64,000 nt of DNA from Gamaleyavirus AN24P2: sequence record OZ035810.1. One strand, given 5' to 3'. The notes below the pieces were generated by a model. It searched no databases. It had not been told where the DNA came from and saw nothing but the letters and a program-made list of their open reading frames with translations. This document shows, one piece after another, positions 2,308 to 60,479 of this stretch; the first letter of the stretch is position 1; each line of letters begins with the position of its first letter. Made by a program: the position numbers and the translations under genes.

Positions 2308-3015
2308 ATGATTAAGTTAACAGAGTTATATAAGAGTCTGGCTCTGTCTGTCTTGAATAACACCAGTGTGATAACTGATGACAAGAAAGACATTGAACCA
2401 GATAAAAAGGAATACATCCTTGAGTTTATTAATGAGGGACTAACTCGTTTACATGGACGGTTCCCATTAAAGACACGCAATGTATTCGTTGAAATGCGTG
2501 AGGGCAGAACTGAGTACCCTTTACTGGCTCGCTATTCCTTTACTGGATTTGACCCTACACTAGCACAGTACCCATACATTATGGATTCTGCTAGTAACCC
2601 TTTTAAGGAAGACGTTATTAAAATCCTGGTAGTGTATGATTCAAAAGGACACAGACGTGGGTTGAATGATAATCACAATCCGCATGGATTGTTTACTCCA
2701 CGTCCCGATACGTTACAGTGTATTCGTCCTCGTCATTGCGAAGTACTTACGGTAACCTATCAAGCGAAACACCCAACTGTTACTGTAGATGGTGAGGACC
2801 AGGAGATTGATTTACCTGATACCCTACTGCCTGCTTTAAAGTACTGGGTAGCATATAGTTACTACACTGGACTCAATACTGCCGAAAGTACTAGCAAAGC
2901 TACGGAGTATCTACAAATGTACGAATCAATATGTGGAGAGGTTAAGGATTACGACCTTGGAAGCAGCAGTGAGTCCAGTACCAATACACTATTTGAAATA
3001 AGAGGATGGATATGA
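2308..3015 (+). CDS. virion structural protein (N4 gp67-like by position)
   Basis: 235-aa ORF with AGGAAA RBS, between terminase and tail fibre genes. Confidence 0.4.
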   Translation: MIKLTELYKSLALSVLNNTSVITDDKKDIEPDKKEYILEFINEGLTRLHGRFPLKTRNVFVEMREGRTEYPLLARYSFTGFDPTLAQYPYIMDSASNPFKEDVIKILVVYDSKGHRRGLNDNHNPHGLFTPRPDTLQCIRPRHCEVLTVTYQAKHPTVTVDGEDQEIDLPDTLLPALKYWVAYSYYTGLNTAESTSKATEYLQMYESICGEVKDYDLGSSSESSTNTLFEIRGWI

Positions 3016-5282
3016 ATTCTCATAACCCATTTAATACGGGCAGTAACGGTTACTCCAATGACTTTTGTTCTGCTGACTCATTAGTAGATCGAATCATTGG
3101 GGATGCCTACCACGTAGTTAAGGAAGTTTACTTAGCACTGGATAACCTTACCTACATCTATAATTACCTACAGAAGTATGGCTTGATTATTACTGTAGAT
3201 AGTGAAGAGGCAATCAAGGATATCCCTTTATCAATTGGGAAGTTTGCTCGTGTCTACAATAAGTCTGAGTCAGTTGGTTACTACTTTACTGACTATCTTT
3301 ATGTAGATGATGATACCAGTGGCATTAGACCAAATGAACCAGGTGCTACTGGTTCTTGGGTTAGTACCAAAGCTACTGGTTCCAATGCCTCGTTTGTTCG
3401 CATTTGGAAATATCGGGCTAAGACTGATGGTGTTACGTCTATAAAGCTACCCACGGATGTTCCAATTGTTGGGGTGCAGACTATTTACGTGGAGGGGGTA
3501 AGACAGGATATCAATGAAGGTTTTTCCTACAATGAGGGTACTGCTACAATCACACTGGCTGACTCCTTAGAAGTTGGTAATCTGGTTACAGTTATTATAG
3601 GTGTAAATGACCCAGATATGGATGTGGATGTTTTCGCTATACTTAAGAATAGTGATGGTGCATCTAATATCGGTACTCAGTCTGGGGAAACTGTACAACA
3701 AGTTATCGACAGAAATTATGCGAATTTACGTGAGCATTGGCGTCGTCAACTTGCAGAAGCTGGCCTTAACCTTGTCGATGGTAGTTTTGAATACGGGGCT
3801 GAAGTGAGTACCCCCACGGATGCTGTTTGGTATATTGCTGAGGGTCAGTGCTATACGTGGGGGGGTTCACTGCCTAAATCTGTACCTGTAAATTCTAATC
3901 CAGAGAACTCTGGTGGAATTTCAGAAGACGGATGGAATAGTGTGACCTCTCAGTCAACACTGACGGTACTGGCTAAGTCTACTGGTGCACAGAAATCTGG
4001 GTATCGTTATAGTGATGTTTACTCCGTACTCTCCCGGTTTATGGCATACCAGGATCATAATATAGCTCAACCGGCACTAGGCCGTGATGAATCAACAAAC
4101 CAAACCATTTGGGATGCACAATCACAACTTGACTTAAAGCATCGTGGGGGTATTTTCGCAGGCAAGGAAACATATGGTATCCGTGAAAATTCTACCGTAG
4201 CATCATTCAGGGCTAACACAGGTACTGGTAGTGCATTTGTCCCTCAAGTAGCTGGAAGCGACGACCTTGCTGTGCTTGCACAAGCAGGTGCTATGGATAG
4301 CGTAGCTGTTTTCGCTGACACATGGTTAGGCGAATATAACTCATGGGAAGATATTGCTACAGCAAACTATACCGCAACTAGTTTTACCGTTAGCGATGCT
4401 TCATTGCTTGAAAAGGTGAAAGTTGGGCAATTTCTAATGACCAAACATTCATCTAGATATGTTGGCCTAGTAACTGGTATTTCAGGTGCTACTGTAACCG
4501 TCCAGAAGTGGGTTATTTATGGAACTTCAACAGTTGGAACGCCAGCTGATGGTGTCGGCTTATATGTAAACCCTGTTATAAAAGGCTGGGCAGTAAATGC
4601 TAATGTCCTTATAGGTCCCAACAGTAGAGCAGAGAAATGTGCATTATTTGAGTTTGGTCTTCAGAATAATGGAATACCTGATACTGCTCTCATTACTGGG
4701 GGGGACATAGTAGCTCTCAATGCGACTTATGGGGGTGGGGATGGTCTGCGAGTGAGAGGGACTTCAGCGACAGGAAGATGGACCAACGGTGTAAGTGCAT
4801 CTGGGGGTAGCTCTACAAATTTCCGGTCTTCTACAGGGCAAGGCCCTAGTAGTCTAGCTGCATTTTTAGAAGAGTCTGATTCTGCTACAGGGTTTCTTTT
4901 CAAGGGTAAGAACACTTCCCGATCAATTTCATGGCAGAATGCGTCTGGTGTTGAACAAGCTGCCTTAGCTCCTTATGGATTTGAGATTAAAGGTGGGAAG
5001 GGATTGAGTACCGCAGTGTCTGGAAATGCAGTCACTGCTGGTGGTAAGGTTGTAGTACAAAATTCATCGGCGTTTGCTTTAGTACTGCCGGACGCCAGTA
5101 ATTTCACGGCTGGTCGAGAGATTCACTTTATCGCTACTGGTGTTAGCCCTATCACTATTACTAGTGCACAACCAGGGGGTACTGTTAATGGTAACTCTAG
5201 CGTAATTATTACACCTACTTATGGCTTCTCAGAAATGACAGCTACATATGCAGGTGGTGGATTATGGTATGTTACAAGGTAA
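3006..5282 (+). CDS. tail fibre / appendage protein
   Basis: 758-aa protein rich in Gly/Ser/Thr, with an N-terminal ~150-aa region typical of a virion-attachment domain; precedes a second spike gene. Confidence 0.5.
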   Translation: MDMNSHNPFNTGSNGYSNDFCSADSLVDRIIGDAYHVVKEVYLALDNLTYIYNYLQKYGLIITVDSEEAIKDIPLSIGKFARVYNKSESVGYYFTDYLYVDDDTSGIRPNEPGATGSWVSTKATGSNASFVRIWKYRAKTDGVTSIKLPTDVPIVGVQTIYVEGVRQDINEGFSYNEGTATITLADSLEVGNLVTVIIGVNDPDMDVDVFAILKNSDGASNIGTQSGETVQQVIDRNYANLREHWRRQLAEAGLNLVDGSFEYGAEVSTPTDAVWYIAEGQCYTWGGSLPKSVPVNSNPENSGGISEDGWNSVTSQSTLTVLAKSTGAQKSGYRYSDVYSVLSRFMAYQDHNIAQPALGRDESTNQTIWDAQSQLDLKHRGGIFAGKETYGIRENSTVASFRANTGTGSAFVPQVAGSDDLAVLAQAGAMDSVAVFADTWLGEYNSWEDIATANYTATSFTVSDASLLEKVKVGQFLMTKHSSRYVGLVTGISGATVTVQKWVIYGTSTVGTPADGVGLYVNPVIKGWAVNANVLIGPNSRAEKCALFEFGLQNNGIPDTALITGGDIVALNATYGGGDGLRVRGTSATGRWTNGVSASGGSSTNFRSSTGQGPSSLAAFLEESDSATGFLFKGKNTSRSISWQNASGVEQAALAPYGFEIKGGKGLSTAVSGNAVTAGGKVVVQNSSAFALVLPDASNFTAGREIHFIATGVSPITITSAQPGGTVNGNSSVIITPTYGFSEMTATYAGGGLWYVTR

Positions 5283-8387: not shown

Positions 8388-8632
8388 AAAGAAAGATAGA
8401 GCTAGTACCTAATTGGAAGAAGTCCTGGAAATGGGCATCTGTTCAGATTAGTACGTTTGGTTTAATTCTGTTTTCTGCTGTAGATATCATCCAACCAATG
8501 GTGACGGGACTACCTCGTCACATCCTGGAAGATATTCCTCATGGTTCCAATATTGCAATCGCACTGTTTGCCTTAAACATCATGGGTAGATTGATACGAT
8601 TCCGTCCAAAGGAAGATTCACATGAAAGCTAA
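8372..8632 (+). CDS. putative holin (two transmembrane segments)
   Basis: In-frame ATG at 8372 inside ORF 8306..8632; two hydrophobic stretches (ISTFGLILFSAVDII and IAIALFALNIMG); immediately upstream of and overlapping the endolysin. Confidence 0.4.
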   Translation: MVRRLKRKIELVPNWKKSWKWASVQISTFGLILFSAVDIIQPMVTGLPRHILEDIPHGSNIAIALFALNIMGRLIRFRPKEDSHES

Positions 8633-9257
8633 ACAGAAACTTGCTGCAAAAGGTGGTGCAGTGGGAGGGGTTATCGCTGCTATTCTGGGGGCAGTGTTTT
8701 ATATGGAAGGAGGGTATGTAAATAATCCTCGTGACCCAGGTGGTGAAACTAATCATGGTATTACCCAAGCTGTAGCTAAATCCCATAAAGAAGTTCTGGC
8801 TACTGAGTATGGTTGGGATGGTTCTATGAAGGGTTTATCTAAAGAGATGGCTGCTGAGATATACATTGATGACTACGTACTTAAGCCTAATTTCGTAGCC
8901 TTCGCTAATATATCTCCTGCTATAACACACAAACTGGTTGATGCTGGTGTTAACACAGGTGTAACCAGACCAGCTAAGTGGTTGCAGCAATCCCTCAATG
9001 AAATGTCCCGTAATGGCAAAGACTACCCTAAAATACAGGTTGATGGTAAAGTCGGTGCAAGTACTGTTAATGCATATAAAGCATTACAGAAAAAGCGAGG
9101 CAAAGTTGCAGCATGTCGGGTAATGATTAAGTTACTTGATGCTAAACAACTGAACCATTACACCTCATTAAACATGCCGGATTTTACGTATGGTTGGGTA
9201 GCTAACCGAATTGGCAATGTGCCACTGGAGGCATGTAATGAAGATGCTAATCTCTAA
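8622..9257 (+). CDS. endolysin, GH108-type muramidase with C-terminal peptidoglycan-binding region and SAR-like N-terminus
   Basis: Motif EGGYVNNPRDPGGETNHGITQ is the GH108 catalytic signature; preceded by a Gly/Ala-rich weakly hydrophobic stretch GGAVGGVIAAILGAVF. Confidence 0.75.
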   Translation: MKAKQKLAAKGGAVGGVIAAILGAVFYMEGGYVNNPRDPGGETNHGITQAVAKSHKEVLATEYGWDGSMKGLSKEMAAEIYIDDYVLKPNFVAFANISPAITHKLVDAGVNTGVTRPAKWLQQSLNEMSRNGKDYPKIQVDGKVGASTVNAYKALQKKRGKVAACRVMIKLLDAKQLNHYTSLNMPDFTYGWVANRIGNVPLEACNEDANL

Positions 9258-56831: not shown

Positions 56832-57884
56832 TTATCCGTGAATGTAGCGAGAGATGTTAGCAGCAGCCTTACGCCATTCAGGGGTAGCCTGAAGTTCTGG
56901 TAATGCTCTGCCTACTGTACGGAAGTACAGAATCTTATGGGTGAACGTTTTAAAACGCTCAATGTACTGAAGAACATCAGCGAAGTTTTCTTCAGTGGTT
57001 TTGTTAGCCAGATGGTTAACGGTAGCCCAACACAGGTTATTATCTTCCGGTAGTGCACAGCCCAGCGGGTCTTTGACTACTTTCTCAATCGTAATCATAC
57101 GATTATACACCTGTGTAAACTGAACAAACTCTGTAGCCTTACCGGCAGTAACGTGGCCTGCATAGTAGATAGAATCTTCATCTGGCAGAGCACCTTCAGG
57201 ACGGTTCTTGAGGTCTTTGTTAACAAAGTCCCAGGTACGAGGGCAGCAGAACGTTTTGTTCTTATGGGCTGGGTCGAAGTCATGCAGATAACCAGGGTTA
57301 GCATGTAGGAATGCAACCAGACGTTCATCCCATTCTTGAGGAATCATTACGTCTTCAACAAAGATGTCGAAGTTAAGTTCCATTTCGAAGTGGACAACAC
57401 GAGACTGCATTGCAGTACCCAGTGGGTTAACAATTGCACGGTCAGTAGCTTTGTTACCTGCACAGATAATCATCACATTAGGATGAAGTTTTTTCTGACC
57501 AGTCATACGGTCTAGAATCAGTTTGTATGCAGCAGCTATTACTTCTTTGCGAGCAGATGGGAACTCGTCAAGGAATAAGAGCCAGCCATTATACCCTTCT
57601 GGTATTTCATCCCCCTCAATAGGGAATAAGTCAGCGAATGGGATAAACTCTGCACGGTCACCATTACGGAATGGTAAACCAGATAAGTCTTCCGGGGCAG
57701 AAGTAGACAGACGATGGTCTATCAGCTTCATACCAAATTCTTCTGCAACAGAACGAATAATTGCAGATTTACCCATGCCTGGTGATGAAGTCAGGAACGG
57801 TACGTTACCTGCTTGTAGGGCACGAATAATAAAGTTACGGGCCTGACGTGTATTACATACGGTCAGTGAGTCAATGCTCGCCAT
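56832..57884 (-). CDS. AAA+ ATPase (MoxR-like)
   Basis: 350 aa; Walker A TSSPGMGKSA, Walker B LLFLDEF; operonic with the vWA protein. Confidence 0.6.
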   Translation of the reverse strand: MASIDSLTVCNTRQARNFIIRALQAGNVPFLTSSPGMGKSAIIRSVAEEFGMKLIDHRLSTSAPEDLSGLPFRNGDRAEFIPFADLFPIEGDEIPEGYNGWLLFLDEFPSARKEVIAAAYKLILDRMTGQKKLHPNVMIICAGNKATDRAIVNPLGTAMQSRVVHFEMELNFDIFVEDVMIPQEWDERLVAFLHANPGYLHDFDPAHKNKTFCCPRTWDFVNKDLKNRPEGALPDEDSIYYAGHVTAGKATEFVQFTQVYNRMITIEKVVKDPLGCALPEDNNLCWATVNHLANKTTEENFADVLQYIERFKTFTHKILYFRTVGRALPELQATPEWRKAAANISRYIHG

Positions 57885-57918
57885 TTACTTACTCTCCTAA
57901 AGTTAATGGAATTATTAA

Positions 57919-58245
57919 TTAAGATTTAATACATGGGTATGCTGTATCAATCGCCAACAGAACCATGTCTGATGGTACTTTTACTGCATTAACCTTTCGG
58001 TCGTACAGAATAATAGTGGCTACTTTGTCAAAGACATTTCCCAGCTTCATATTATCTGGTACGCAGTTTTTACCTGCTTCTACACCCATAGTAACCATAC
58101 CCATGAAGTAACCCTGGTTCACAAAGTTTGAATTATTAGCTTTGTAGTCAGCAGCAGCTTCCAACAAAGTTGCACGACTGGATGCTTGAGCACCGAATGA
58201 CAAAACTGATAAAGCTACTAGGACAACAGCAATTAAAGTTTTCAT
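57919..58245 (-). CDS. secreted/periplasmic small protein
   Basis: 108 aa; N-terminal signal peptide MKTLIAVVLVALSVLSFGAQA; two Cys in the mature part. Confidence 0.45.
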   Translation of the reverse strand: MKTLIAVVLVALSVLSFGAQASSRATLLEAAADYKANNSNFVNQGYFMGMVTMGVEAGKNCVPDNMKLGNVFDKVATIILYDRKVNAVKVPSDMVLLAIDTAYPCIKS

Positions 58246-58430
58246 TTAGTTACCTTTGATTCGTTGAGTTGAAGTACTCCGGTAGGGGTTAATGACCACC
58301 CAATACCAGTATTGAATTGCACTAAGCCCAGTTTTTTAAGAGACTGTGCGGTTTTGTTATTACGGTTGCTGGTGGCAGAACCACCTTGAACCATACGAAG
58401 GAAGATTGCTTGGGACTGAGTAAGTTTCAA
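58242..58430 (-). CDS. small hypothetical protein
   Basis: 62-aa ORF, start/stop overlapping its neighbours. Confidence 0.3.
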   Translation of the reverse strand: MKLTQSQAIFLRMVQGGSATSNRNNKTAQSLKKLGLVQFNTGIGWSLTPTGVLQLNESKVTK

Positions 58431-58636
58431 AGATAGTATCCTTCCAGGTTTATTGGAGTTACAAATGTACTTGCTGACAGACAGAAAGACTTGCCAGTCT
58501 CTACAGCAACAGCAGCAGGTTTACCATCAGGTAAGGTAACTTTTAGGCATACCGTCTGCATATAAATAAAACCATTGGCAGGTTGTACATCGCCAAAAGT
58601 TACCTCATTGTTTTCAGAACGATTTGTTACTTTCAT
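58427..58636 (-). CDS. small hypothetical protein
   Basis: 69-aa ORF, overlapping start/stop codons. Confidence 0.3.
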   Translation of the reverse strand: MKVTNRSENNEVTFGDVQPANGFIYMQTVCLKVTLPDGKPAAVAVETGKSFCLSASTFVTPINLEGYYL

Positions 58637-58821
58637 TTCTTCTCCGGTACGAACTGCATTACGCAGTTTTGATTACGAGGGATATTCAATTCACATTCAT
58701 GCTTGAGGGTTTGCGTTACAGAATTTGGTGTAGAACCAAAGTAGGTATTAGAAATAGCTACAAATCCTGCACCTATTAAACCACCCAGTAAGAATGAGAA
58801 GAATGCAATCTCTTTATACAT
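58633..58821 (-). CDS. small membrane protein
   Basis: 62 aa with N-terminal TM helix IAFFSFLLGGLIGAGFVAI. Confidence 0.35.
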   Translation of the reverse strand: MYKEIAFFSFLLGGLIGAGFVAISNTYFGSTPNSVTQTLKHECELNIPRNQNCVMQFVPEKK

Positions 58822-58925
58822 TTCCTGGTTCCAGAATGTTTAAGCCAAAAAAAGACCTCCCTTCAATAGGGAGGTCAATAGATATCAAAGGAATGTTATG
58901 GGTTTTATCAACCCAAATAAAGCAA

Positions 58926-59240
58926 TCAGGATTGCGTAGCAAGCCAATCCAGATATTCTTCTGGGTCATCGAAGTATTCATTACCATCTTCATAGAACCA
59001 GTCAACCCAACGGTCTTCTAGTTCCATATCGACTAGGTCTTGGTCAGTGAGGGACTCATCCCACATCTCAATACCGTTAGCATTAGCATAATCGCCTTTG
59101 ACATTGTTCTCATACTGAAATAGGTCATAGTCTGCTAATGCATTCTTAATCTTAACAGCTTCCTGAAGACTGTCTGTTTCTACATGAAATGCCTTCATTG
59201 GCACTTGAGGAATGTGCCATACACGCAATTTTTGTGTCAT
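58926..59240 (-). CDS. acidic aromatic-rich small protein
   Basis: ORF-track start 59315 is TTG; ATG at 59240 has an AGGAG RBS; C-terminus DWFYEDGNEYFDDPEEYLDWL. Confidence 0.4.
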   Translation of the reverse strand: MTQKLRVWHIPQVPMKAFHVETDSLQEAVKIKNALADYDLFQYENNVKGDYANANGIEMWDESLTDQDLVDMELEDRWVDWFYEDGNEYFDDPEEYLDWLATQS

Positions 59241-60212: not shown

Positions 60213-60479
60213 TTAGATAATTACATAGTAGATAGCAAAAGCTATCCATCCTGCCATTACAAAGCAGCCAAGTGAGTATGCTCCATAGTAACAGTAAGCA
60301 AACTTAGACTTGTGGGCACGAACTATCGTAGCCAGAACCAGTACAGATAAAACTATCAGTATTATCTGAGAGATTACTTCAAAAGGGATTAGCATAGTTA
60401 TTACCTCCAAGCAAAAAATAAAGCCCCACTCCCGAAGGAATGAGGCTAGTTTATTAATACACTTGCACAGTCCAGCCAT
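60213..60479 (-). CDS. small membrane protein
   Basis: 88 aa; two hydrophobic helices. Confidence 0.3.
   Translation of the reverse strand: MAGLCKCINKLASFLREWGFIFCLEVITMLIPFEVISQIILIVLSVLVLATIVRAHKSKFAYCYYGAYSLGCFVMAGWIAFAIYYVII

What the first reader, a model, noticed from the sequence alone, without database searches (positions are those of the whole stretch)
57919..58821. Translationally coupled operon of four small envelope-targeted proteins
Four ORFs of 62-108 aa have overlapping stop/start codons. The first has a cleavable signal peptide and two cysteines, and the last has a single TM helix. Nothing about them is recognisable by motif. Small early-expressed envelope proteins of this kind are frequent host-takeover or superinfection-exclusion factors.
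Basis: inference. Interest (0 to 1): 0.4.

Follow-up and report, generated by a model that had tools for sequence, protein, structure and literature searches.

The report
Phage accessory genes with Rap1a-like protein
Four small, real, back-to-back genes of an N4-like E. coli phage are a mixed accessory cassette, not one envelope system. The last one encodes a secreted relative of the Rap1a/Tai4a proteins that bacteria use to block cell-wall-cutting toxins, so it may shield the infected cell.

Summary
The window is Gamaleyavirus AN24P2, a G7C/N4-like phage. The four ORFs exist on the minus strand and are joined by ATGA, TTGA and ATGA overlaps. All are under purifying selection (dN/dS 0.12-0.18) and conserved in 19-99 phage records. 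They are not a stand-alone operon. They follow a conserved terminator hairpin and run without a terminator into the conserved gp24 ATPase gene. This places them in the N4-type middle region, so "early" is unsupported.

Only two products go to the envelope. gp17.1-like has one TM helix and an invariant tail, ECELNIPRNQNCVMQFVPE. gp17.3-like has a Sec signal peptide and two Cys. The 69-aa ORF is a soluble accessory insert. gp17.2-like is a basic winged-helix protein.

"Nothing recognisable" is wrong. gp17.3 is a distant Rap1a/Tai4a homologue (T6SS amidase immunity): HHalign 99.3%, top PDB fold hits Tai4/Rap1a, and the same 44-residue Cys spacing as the Rap1a disulfide. It is a swapped cassette with four allele classes, and its most variable stretch matches the Rap1a segment that blocks the effector active site.

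Most likely it is a periplasmic inhibitor of Tae4/Ssp1-type endopeptidases that protects the infected cell. This is untested. UniProt and GenBank already label orthologues Rap1a/Tai4.

The parts
58847..58876 (-). Intrinsic-terminator-like hairpin (GACCTCCCT-ATTGA-AGGGAGGTC) followed by T7. It sits about 25 nt upstream of the first ORF's ATG.
   Evidence: 9-bp stem, 6 GC pairs, T-run. It is conserved in 11 of the 12 relatives examined, with paired changes in the stem (phiG17, NAN33P5), and replaced in Bp4 by a different hairpin. It is annotated stem_loop or terminator in G7C and PhAPEC5/7.
58633..58821 (-). gp17.1-like gene, 62 aa. A bitopic inner-membrane protein: TM residues 5-23 and an invariant C-terminal motif ECELNIPRNQNCVMQFVPE (Cys43, Cys53).
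   Evidence: phrog_7508, 1.3e-33; 99 phage records, including Klebsiella and Erwinia N4-like phages; motif invariant in 76 unique homologues, with synonymous variation present; dN/dS 0.17.
58427..58636 (-). orf69, 69 aa. A soluble, acidic accessory protein of unknown function, inserted between gp17.1 and gp17.2 in only some relatives.
   Evidence: phrog_18793, 1.6e-48; 19 records only; present or absent at NTGA junctions; dN/dS 0.12-0.14; no TM or SP; weak resemblance to N4 gp21; no PDB relative.
58242..58430 (-). gp17.2-like gene, 62 aa, TTG start. A basic (pI 11.3) minimal winged-helix protein, predicted cytoplasmic. Its 3' end is frameshifted relative to all relatives.
   Evidence: phrog_7665, 4.8e-33; 81 records; 1-nt deletion; dN/dS 0.17; AF2 pLDDT 88.6; top Foldseek hits are wHTH domains of DtxR/MntR, CggR and MarR; TMq 0.66-0.77.
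57919..58245 (-). gp17.3-like gene, 108 aa. A secreted Rap1a/Tai4a-family protein (the T6SS amidase-immunity fold) with Cys61 (58063-58065) and Cys105 (57931-57933).
   Evidence: (Pfam Rap1a, E 1.2e-3, below threshold), 21+23 (the profile finds proteins that pass PF18602), 27 (the only PDB profile hits are Tai4 6IJE/6IJF and Rap1a 3ZFI/4BI8), 25+28 (AF2 pLDDT 84; Foldseek top hits Tai4/Rap1a, prob 0.93-0.99), 87 (HHalign 99.3%, E 1.7e-20), 92 (UniProt names orthologues 'Rap1a immunity protein domain-containing').
58183..58245 (-). Sec-type signal peptide of gp17.3 (codons 1-21; MK / TLIAVVLVALSVLSFG / AQA|S). There is no lipobox.
   Evidence: The region has low pLDDT in the model. It is conserved among allele classes A-C.
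58015..58056 (-). Codons 64-77 of gp17.3 (DNMKLGNVFDKVAT). This is the most variable 14-residue stretch of the mature protein and is equivalent to Rap1a residues 81-94, which block the Ssp1 active site.
   Evidence: entropy 0.85 against 0.39 for the mature protein; the 8 contact-equivalent positions score 1.01, permutation P=0.003; pN/pS 0.35 against 0.18. Searches give the residue mapping.
57885..57918 (-). 34-nt spacer carrying the SD (AGGAGAG) for gp24. It contains no terminator, so transcription should continue.
   Evidence: near-identical in the G7C-group relatives; Jgk1 has other genes here.
56832..57884 (-). N4 gp24-like AAA+ ATPase. It is the conserved core gene downstream and marks the end of the variable segment.
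   Evidence: 95-99% aa identity in the G7C-group relatives.

Best explanation
The locus is the variable accessory segment at the head of the long rightward (here minus-strand) N4-type middle transcription unit of a Gamaleyavirus. It lies between the capsid-decoration gene and the conserved gp24/gp25 pair. It holds four genuine, translationally coupled but functionally unrelated small genes:
(1) gp17.1, an inner-membrane-anchored peptide whose invariant 19-residue C-terminal motif is the functional part. Its target is unknown.
(2) orf69, an optional soluble insert.
(3) gp17.2, a minimal basic winged-helix protein. It is cytoplasmic and probably binds nucleic acid.
(4) gp17.3, a Sec-exported member of the Rap1a/Tai4a family.

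Proposed mechanism for gp17.3. It is exported to the periplasm of the infected cell. DsbA locks it through the Cys61-Cys105 disulfide, and it forms a dimer as Rap1a does. It then sterically blocks the active site of an incoming Tae4/Ssp1-type (NlpC/P60) gamma-D-Glu-mDAP endopeptidase. This keeps the infected cell's wall intact against type VI attack by neighbours until the phage's own lysis. Because such effectors are polymorphic, the phage population carries several interchangeable alleles.

Shown here: the coding status, coupling, targeting signals, family and fold homology, cysteine geometry, cassette-like allele replacement, and variability concentrated at the contact-equivalent surface. 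Inferred: export, disulfide, dimer, binding of an endopeptidase, identity of the target, and timing of expression.

The stated confidence applies to the whole statement, including the T6SS-protection mechanism. Rap1a-family homology alone is about 0.9, and the description of the locus as a modular accessory segment is about 0.85.
For: Identity and context: 100% match to Gamaleyavirus AN24P2; synteny with G7C gp17.1-17.3 and gp24.

Real genes: dN/dS is 0.12-0.18.

Rap1a membership:
- A weak direct Pfam hit.
- An exhaustive profile search returns only 18 proteins, several of which pass PF18602 at 53-67 bits.
- HHalign probability is 99.3%.
- The only PDB profile hits are Tai4 and Rap1a.
- The best PDB fold hits are Tai4 and Rap1a, and the model has five helices.
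- G49, C61 and C105 are invariant across the phage and bacterial members.
- The Cys spacing of 44 equals that of the essential Rap1a Cys78-Cys122 disulfide between the alpha2-alpha3 loop and the C-terminus.

Polymorphic-target signature:
- Nucleotide identity to ECBP1, Bp4 and Moonfish falls from >90% to ~45% exactly across gp17.3 and recovers in gp24. There are four allele classes at 35-58% aa identity.
- The most variable window of the mature protein coincides with the Rap1a residues that contact Ssp1.

Other points:
- Tae4-family effectors occur in E. coli, Salmonella, Enterobacter, Cronobacter and Serratia, and Ssp1-like ones always pair with Rap1a-type immunity.
- The phage's own endolysin is a GH108 muramidase, not a Tae4-like enzyme.
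- Rap1a-like genes recur in other N4-like contigs, next to an AAA ATPase gene.
Against: - The direct Pfam score is below the gathering threshold (19.8 against 27.7 bits).
- No effector gene is adjacent, so this is an orphan, and nothing here shows binding to any enzyme.
- pN/pS in the variable segment is only 0.35, so positive selection is not demonstrated. Loops following a disulfide are often variable anyway.
- The family is old and widespread within Schitoviridae, and no close bacterial donor was found. That fits a phage-specific role as well as recurrent capture of immunity genes.
- No paper in the searched library reports a phage-encoded T6SS immunity function.
- The functions of gp17.1, orf69 and gp17.2 remain unassigned.
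- The middle-class timing is by analogy with N4 only.
Confidence: 0.45

Rival explanations
1. gp17.3 uses the Rap1a fold to inhibit a peptidoglycan hydrolase that is not delivered by a T6SS. One candidate is a virion-borne endopeptidase of other, superinfecting phages, which would amount to superinfection exclusion. Another is a host periplasmic NlpC/P60 enzyme such as MepS or MepH, which would amount to host takeover or control of lysis timing.
For: The fold and disulfide evidence is the same as for the main explanation. The family is entrenched in N4-like phages at a fixed position near the AAA ATPase, and no recent bacterial source was found. Both points suggest a phage-life-cycle role. Allele diversity would fit variable enzymes of competing phages.
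Against: Host MepS-type enzymes are conserved, which does not explain four allele classes or variability focused on the contact-equivalent surface. All experimentally characterised members of the family neutralise T6SS Tae4/Ssp1 effectors. No known phage exclusion protein has this fold among the PHROG and PADLOC hits.
Confidence: 0.2
2. One reading: the four proteins act together as one envelope-located host-takeover or superinfection-exclusion system, expressed early.
For: The coupling is tight. Two members are envelope-targeted. gp17.1, gp17.2 and a secreted last gene co-occur in the same order in Gamaleyaviruses and in Jgk1. KP8 keeps gp17.1 and gp17.2 homologues plus an unrelated secreted protein, in a different order with an HNH gene between them. 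A P22 gp17-like gene lies just upstream.
Against: Two members are predicted cytoplasmic. orf69 is present in only 19 records, against 56-99 for the others, and alternates with orf86. gp17.3 alleles are exchanged without change in gp17.1 or gp17.2. N4 itself has none of the four. The position is middle-class, not early.
Confidence: 0.1
3. The ORFs are dispensable ORFan filler with no specific function, and the resemblance of gp17.3 to Rap1a is a fold relic.
For: Three of the four proteins have no assignable function. The segment is an indel hotspot. N4 lacks them.
Against: There is purifying selection on all four. The 19-residue gp17.1 motif is invariant across about 50% divergence, with synonymous change present. 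The cysteines, G49 and the YPC motif of gp17.3 are conserved across allele classes that are 35% identical.
Confidence: 0.07

Closest known systems
Rap1a of Serratia marcescens (PDB 3ZFI, and 4BI8 with Ssp1): the 'Tai4a' family, Pfam PF18602 / IPR041238
   Same: Both are about 100-aa proteins with an N-terminal Sec signal peptide. Both form a compact five-helix bundle. Both have one Cys in the alpha2-alpha3 loop and one near the C-terminus, 44 residues apart, and both end in a (Y/F)PC motif. The variable stretch of gp17.3 aligns with the Rap1a residues 81-94 that plug the Ssp1 active site.
   Different: Sequence identity is only about 10-15% and the Pfam score is below threshold. The gene is carried by a virulent phage with no adjacent effector and no T6SS genes. 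The dimer and the inhibition are untested.
Tai4 of Agrobacterium tumefaciens (PDB 6IJE, and 6IJF with Tae4)
   Same: It is the best hit both by PDB profile (E 2.7e-3) and by Foldseek (prob 0.99, TM about 0.6). The alignment covers both cysteines.
   Different: Identity is 14-15%. It is a chromosomal immunity gene with a cognate Tae4. The GenBank label 'Tai4' on phage orthologues should be read as the Rap1a/Tai4a fold. It is not the Rap2a/EcTai4/STTai4 fold, which gave no hit.
Orphan T6SS immunity genes on mobile elements (e.g. acquired interbacterial defence islands of Bacteroidales; orphan Rhs immunity in Serratia)
   Same: It is an immunity-type gene without a cognate effector, carried on a mobile genome, polymorphic and exchangeable. 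Some bona fide Rap1a relatives found here also sit next to integrase or resolvase genes.
   Different: Those protect a living bacterial lineage. Here the carrier is a lytic phage, so any protection would last only for the latent period.
G7C gp17.1 / gp17.2 / gp17.3 (HQ259105) and PHROGs 7508, 7665, 11132, 18793
   Same: These are direct orthologues at 91-98% aa identity, with the same order and the same flanks.
   Different: AN24P2 has the extra orf69, a TTG start on gp17.2, and a frameshifted gp17.2 tail. All are annotated as hypothetical in G7C.
N4 gp19-gp23 (the same genomic slot in phage N4)
   Same: The slot lies between the decoration / P22-gp17-like genes and gp24. It is likewise filled with small membrane and envelope proteins: gp19 membrane, gp20 SPFH lipoprotein, gp23 two-TM.
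   Different: There is no detectable homology to gp17.1, gp17.2 or gp17.3. Only orf69 weakly resembles N4 gp21.

Membership tests
Rap1a / Tai4a T6SS amidase-immunity family (PF18602) | The sequence passes the Pfam family model at the curated threshold. | tested here: not met
   19.8 bits against a cut-off of 27.7 (E 1.2e-3). Other phage-type relatives also score 16-24 bits.
Rap1a / Tai4a T6SS amidase-immunity family (PF18602) | Homology by profile methods to proteins that do pass the family model. | tested here: met
   The phage profile retrieves PF18602-positive proteins out of 1.84 billion. HHalign of the phage set against that set gives 99.3%, E 1.7e-20, over 104 columns. The only PDB profile hits are Tai4 and Rap1a.
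Rap1a / Tai4a T6SS amidase-immunity family (PF18602) | A compact five-alpha-helix fold like 3ZFI. | tested here: met
   The AF2 model has pLDDT 84 and five helices after the signal peptide. The top six Foldseek PDB hits are Tai4 or Rap1a chains, with TM 0.52-0.64.
Rap1a / Tai4a T6SS amidase-immunity family (PF18602) | A structural disulfide between the alpha2-alpha3 loop and the C-terminal region (Rap1a Cys78-Cys122). | tested here: met
   Cys61 lies in the loop after helix 41-57 and Cys105 after the last helix. The spacing is 44, as in Rap1a, and both are invariant in all 22 aligned phage and bacterial members. Actual bond formation was not tested.
Rap1a / Tai4a T6SS amidase-immunity family (PF18602) | An N-terminal signal peptide and periplasmic location. 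| tested here: met
   The sequence reads MK + 16 hydrophobic residues + AQA|S, with no lipobox. This is a sequence-level prediction only.
Rap1a / Tai4a T6SS amidase-immunity family (PF18602) | Encoded next to a cognate Ssp1/Tae4 effector within or near a T6SS locus. | tested here: not met
   The neighbours are gp17.2 (wHTH) and the gp24 ATPase in a 71-kb lytic phage genome. At most it is an orphan immunity gene.
Rap1a / Tai4a T6SS amidase-immunity family (PF18602) | Forms a homodimer and neutralises a Tae4-family DL-endopeptidase. | not testable with these tools
   This needs biochemistry or complex prediction. Only a monomer model could be made.
Canonical Tai4 (Rap2a / EcTai4 / STTai4 fold) | Sequence or fold similarity to Rap2a, EcTai4 or STTai4. 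| tested here: not met
   No Pfam Tai4 hit at E<=0.1. None of these chains appears among the PDB profile or Foldseek hits. Rap1a is a distinct fold.
Translationally coupled gene run | Same strand, stop/start overlap or abutment, and an SD inside the upstream ORF. | tested here: met
   ATGA, TTGA and ATGA overlaps with GGAG/AAGGA-type SDs. NTGA or TAA-ATG junctions are conserved in all G7C-group relatives examined, whatever cassette is present. Actual coupling was not measured.
Known phage superinfection-exclusion / anti-defence proteins | Homology to a characterised exclusion or defence-related family. | tested here: not met
   PHROG categories are 'unknown function' for all four. There are no PADLOC or NCBIfam hits. 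Only the separate upstream gene matches Pfam GP17.
Winged helix-turn-helix DNA-binding domains (for gp17.2) | An H-H-H plus beta-hairpin wing fold that superposes on known wHTH domains. | tested here: met
   The model has pLDDT 88.6. The top hits are DtxR/MntR, CggR, MarR and GntR DNA-binding domains, TMq 0.66-0.77, but E values are only 0.09-0.6 because the domain is small. No sequence-level family hit was found. DNA binding is untested.

The most novel reading that the evidence does not exclude
Virulent N4-like coliphages carry a polymorphic, exchangeable cassette encoding a periplasmic T6SS-immunity protein. Its purpose would be to protect the infected cell from being lysed prematurely by type VI amidase attack from neighbouring bacteria. 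That would be phage-encoded defence against interbacterial antagonism, with phage alleles tracking effector diversity in the community.
Probability: 0.35. Interest if true: 0.7.

Novelty: new member of a known kind. Interest (0 to 1): 0.4.

Why it matters
If gp17.3 does neutralise Tae4/Ssp1-type effectors, a strictly lytic phage would be investing in protecting its host cell from other bacteria during the latent period. That would link phage fitness to contact-dependent bacterial warfare. It would also predict that phage success in dense gut or sewage communities, and in phage therapy, depends on which T6SS effectors the neighbours carry.

The four interchangeable alleles on near-identical phage backbones make a ready-made specificity panel. 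The invariant gp17.1 peptide motif is a clean target for finding a new phage-host interaction.

If gp17.3 does not do this, the locus is an ordinary variable accessory segment of a well-known phage group.

Tried and rejected
- Direct sequence search of gp17.3, and of its close-family profile, against PDB found nothing. Hits appeared only after distant relatives were added.
- NCBIfam and PADLOC scans of all four proteins gave no meaningful hit.
- I looked for a bacterial source of gp17.3. No DNA match was found in 5,426 complete E. coli genomes. A pattern scan of 185,579 representative genomes confirmed no relative. This scan has limited sensitivity and is not proof of absence.
- I considered that gp17.3 regulates the phage's own endolysin. 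This is unlikely, because that enzyme is a GH108 muramidase.
- I considered that the invariant gp17.1 tail reflects a nucleotide-level element. This was rejected because KP8 and Jgk1 keep the peptide with synonymous changes.
- I tried to fix the gp17.1 topology by the positive-inside rule. 59 of 76 homologues favour C-in, but the G7C-type sequences have no flanking charge, so it stays unresolved.
- orf69 has no PDB or Pfam relative. There is only a weak similarity to N4 gp21.
- Literature searches for phage-encoded Tai4/Rap1a or for Gamaleyavirus plus type VI found nothing relevant.
Full report
**Identity and layout**

The 1.3-kb region matches Gamaleyavirus AN24P2 (OZ035740.1) at 100% and at the same coordinates. 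It matches about 60 other G7C-like N4-type coliphages at 85-98%.

All four ORFs are on the minus strand. In transcription order they are:
- a 62-aa ORF, 58821..58633, orthologue of G7C gp17.1;
- a 69-aa ORF, 58636..58427, absent from G7C;
- a 62-aa ORF with a TTG start, 58430..58242, orthologue of gp17.2;
- a 108-aa ORF, 58245..57919, orthologue of gp17.3.

The junctions are ATGA, TTGA and ATGA, each preceded by an SD-like purine run.

Upstream lies a strong terminator-like hairpin with a T7 run (58876..58854). It ends about 25 nt before the first ATG and is conserved in relatives with paired stem changes. Further upstream are a P22-gp17-like gene and the Hoc-like decoration gene.

Downstream, a 34-nt spacer with a strong SD and no terminator leads into the N4 gp24-like AAA ATPase and the gp25-like DUF2201 protein. 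The four ORFs are therefore the variable head of a longer unit, not a self-contained operon.

**Are they real genes?**

Yes.
- Each matches a PHROG at E 1e-33 to 1e-54.
- tblastn finds gp17.1 in 99 phage records (Escherichia, Klebsiella, Erwinia, Shigella). It finds gp17.2 in 81, gp17.3 in 56 and orf69 in 19.
- Nei-Gojobori dN/dS among 5-12 orthologues is 0.12-0.18 for each gene, against 0.03 for the neighbouring core gene gp24.

**Modularity**

Across 13 relatives the segment between gp17.1 and gp17.2 is empty (G7C, Moonfish, phiG17, ST4, Bas96). Otherwise it holds orf86 (UE-S5b, U1G), orf69 (AN24P2, NAN33P5) or both (PGN829.1, ECBP1, Bp4). The junction is always NTGA, and the start codon changes among ATG, GTG and TTG.

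The 17.2/17.3 junction is TAA-ATG in the 11 G7C-group relatives examined. In AN24P2 a 1-nt deletion shifts the last codons (..ELKGN* becomes ..ESKVTK*) and creates the ATGA overlap.

Phage N4 has different genes in this slot: gp19 (membrane), gp20 (SPFH lipoprotein), gp21, gp22 (HNH) and gp23 (two TM segments). None is homologous to gp17.1, gp17.2 or gp17.3.

**Targeting**

Only two products are envelope proteins.
- gp17.3 has a typical Sec signal peptide, MK / 16 hydrophobic residues / AQA|S.
- gp17.1 has one hydrophobic segment (residues 5-23, KD 2.28).
- orf69 (max KD 1.06, pI 5.1) and gp17.2 (max KD 0.69, pI 11.3) have neither feature.

**gp17.3 is a Rap1a/Tai4a homologue**

- Pfam gives a sub-threshold Rap1a hit (E 1.2e-3, 19.8 against 27.7 bits).
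- A profile of 16 phage orthologues was searched exhaustively against 1.84 billion representatives and returned only 18 proteins. Several of these pass PF18602 at 53-67 bits.
- HHalign of the phage set against those proteins gives 99.3% probability, E 1.7e-20.
- A combined profile hits only A. tumefaciens Tai4 (6IJE/6IJF) and S. marcescens Rap1a (3ZFI/4BI8) in the PDB.
- The AF2 model (pLDDT 84) has five helices after the signal peptide. Its top six Foldseek PDB hits are those same proteins (prob 0.69-0.99, TM 0.52-0.64).
- G49, Cys61 and Cys105 are invariant across all 22 aligned phage and bacterial members.
- The two cysteines are 44 residues apart. One lies in the alpha2-alpha3 loop and one near the C-terminus, exactly as in the Cys78-Cys122 disulfide reported as essential for Rap1a folding (PMC3852654).
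- BFVD shows that UniProt already names the SP5M and Bp4 orthologues 'Rap1a immunity protein domain-containing protein'. GenBank records call it Tai4 or Rap1a in UE-S5b, PBM-3 and Moonfish.

The homology is thus solid and is already captured by automatic annotation. I found no paper that discusses it. The label 'Tai4' should be read as the Rap1a/Tai4a fold. The canonical Tai4 (Rap2a/EcTai4) fold gave no hit.

**Evolutionary pattern of gp17.3**

gp17.1, gp17.2 and gp24 are 84-100% identical among G7C-group Gamaleyaviruses (Jgk1 is more distant). gp17.3 falls into four allele classes that are 35-58% identical to each other. In 60-nt windows, nucleotide identity to ECBP1, Bp4 and Moonfish drops from >90% to about 45% exactly across gp17.3 and returns to 90-98% in gp24. 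That is cassette replacement.

Within the commonest class (100 unique sequences), the most variable 14-residue window of the mature protein is 64-77. Anchored on the conserved Cys, this corresponds to Rap1a residues 81-94. Those residues include Ser81, Gln82, Gln84-Thr87, Glu90 and Glu94, which contact Ssp1 and block its active site. The eight contact-equivalent positions have mean entropy 1.01, against 0.39 for the mature protein (permutation P=0.003).

pN/pS there is raised (0.35 against 0.18) but stays below 1. This is suggestive of a variable target, not proof.

The more distant relatives (P0111, P0113, P0116, P0117) also lie on N4-like phage contigs beside an AAA ATPase gene. No close bacterial copy was found. 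The family is therefore long-resident in Schitoviridae.

**Mechanistic reading of gp17.3**

Characterised Rap1a-type proteins are periplasmic, disulfide-bonded dimers. They sterically block Ssp1-type Tae4 (NlpC/P60) gamma-D-Glu-mDAP endopeptidases. Ssp1-like effectors always pair with Rap1a-type immunity, and Tae4 homologues occur in E. coli and its enterobacterial neighbours.

The phage's own endolysin is a GH108 muramidase, so self-regulation of lysis is not the obvious role.

The best-supported model is an orphan immunity-type inhibitor made in the infected cell that protects the wall from incoming endopeptidase effectors. Polymorphism would match effector diversity. The main rival is inhibition of some other hydrolase, either a competing phage's virion enzyme or a host NlpC/P60 enzyme. 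Conservation of host enzymes argues against the host option.

**The other three genes**

- gp17.2 models confidently (pLDDT 88.6) as helix-helix-wing-helix. It superposes on the wHTH domains of DtxR/MntR, CggR and MarR (TMq 0.66-0.77). It is probably a small cytoplasmic nucleic-acid-binding protein.
- gp17.1 has a variable TM anchor and a tail, ECELNIPRNQNCVMQFVPE, that is invariant in 76 unique homologues down to about 45% overall identity. KP8 and Jgk1 encode the tail with synonymous differences, so the constraint is on the peptide. K/R bias favours a cytoplasmic tail in 59 of 76 homologues, but the G7C-type sequences are uninformative. The topology, and whether the two Cys form a disulfide, is therefore open.
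- orf69 is a soluble accessory protein with only a weak likeness to N4 gp21.

**Timing**

In N4 the early products are gp1, gp2 and gp15/gp16. Middle transcripts, made by RNAPII, cover the left half of the genome (PMC4496689). This cluster lies just downstream of gp16 and gp17. Middle class is therefore the likelier assignment, and 'early' is unsupported. There is no room for a promoter between the hairpin and the first ATG. Expression probably relies on read-through or on an upstream promoter. This was not tested.

**Verdict**

The locus is an ordinary variable accessory segment of a well-studied phage group.

One member is of real interest: a polymorphic Rap1a/Tai4a-family periplasmic protein in a virulent phage. 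Databases recognise it, but it is functionally unexplored.

Noticed in passing
window 58926-59240 (-): A P22 gp17-like gene (Pfam GP17, E 6.6e-46; orthologue of N4 gp18) sits just upstream of the terminator. It is present in AN24P2, PGN829.1, U1G, ST4, NAN33P5, Jgk1 and N4, but absent from G7C, UE-S5b, ECBP1, Moonfish, phiG17 and Bas96. The mechanical ORF call starts at TTG 59315, but homologues start at the ATG at 59240.
   Followed up: partly
window 58246-58262 (-), 3' end of the gp17.2-like ORF: A 1-nt deletion relative to the 11 G7C-group relatives examined changes the C-terminus (..ELKGN* becomes ..ESKVTK*) and creates the ATGA overlap with gp17.3. It could be a genuine variant or an assembly error in OZ035740.1.
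   Followed up: partly
window 58847-58876 (-): The terminator hairpin is conserved in 11 of 12 relatives, with paired stem changes. It lies only about 25 nt from the first ATG and leaves no room for a promoter. How the cluster is transcribed past it by the T7-like RNAPII is unexplained.
   Followed up: partly
L013 (U1G) 2862-4796; L008 (NAN33P5) 3254-4783; L011 (Bp4) 3257-4308: In some relatives the gp24 ATPase gene is split. In U1G and NAN33P5 an HNH endonuclease ORF interrupts it (intron-like); in Bp4 there is a frameshift. Several relatives also carry HNH genes between gp24 and gp25. In the window gp24 is intact.
   Followed up: no
L007 (Klebsiella phage KP8) 3400-3759: KP8 keeps gp17.1 and gp17.2 homologues. 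At the end of the cluster, in place of gp17.3, it has an unrelated 119-aa signal-peptide protein with no Pfam hit. N4 has an SPFH/Band-7 lipoprotein (gp20) in the slot. The position seems to collect exported proteins of different families.
   Followed up: partly
L017 79-399; L018 6001-6327: Bona fide Rap1a (PF18602) genes retrieved by the phage profile sit beside integrase or resolvase genes rather than T6SS effectors. This suggests orphan immunity genes on other mobile elements.
   Followed up: no
L014 1120-2204; L016 3573-4654; L022 651-1723: In more distant N4-like contigs the Rap1a-like gene directly follows, and overlaps by a few nt, a ~250-aa AAA/AAA_2 ATPase gene. Whether this pairing is functional is unknown.
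   Followed up: no
window 60213-60479 (-): An 88-aa ORF with two or more hydrophobic stretches lies upstream of the Hoc-like gene and is preceded and followed by terminator-like hairpins (60447-60422, 60214-60195). It may be another small membrane protein. It was not examined.
   Followed up: no
window 8622-9257 (+): The endolysin is GH108 plus PG_binding_3 (a muramidase). In the relative Bas96 the corresponding gene is flanked by annotated holin and spanin genes. It was used only to exclude it as the likely target of gp17.3.
   Followed up: partly
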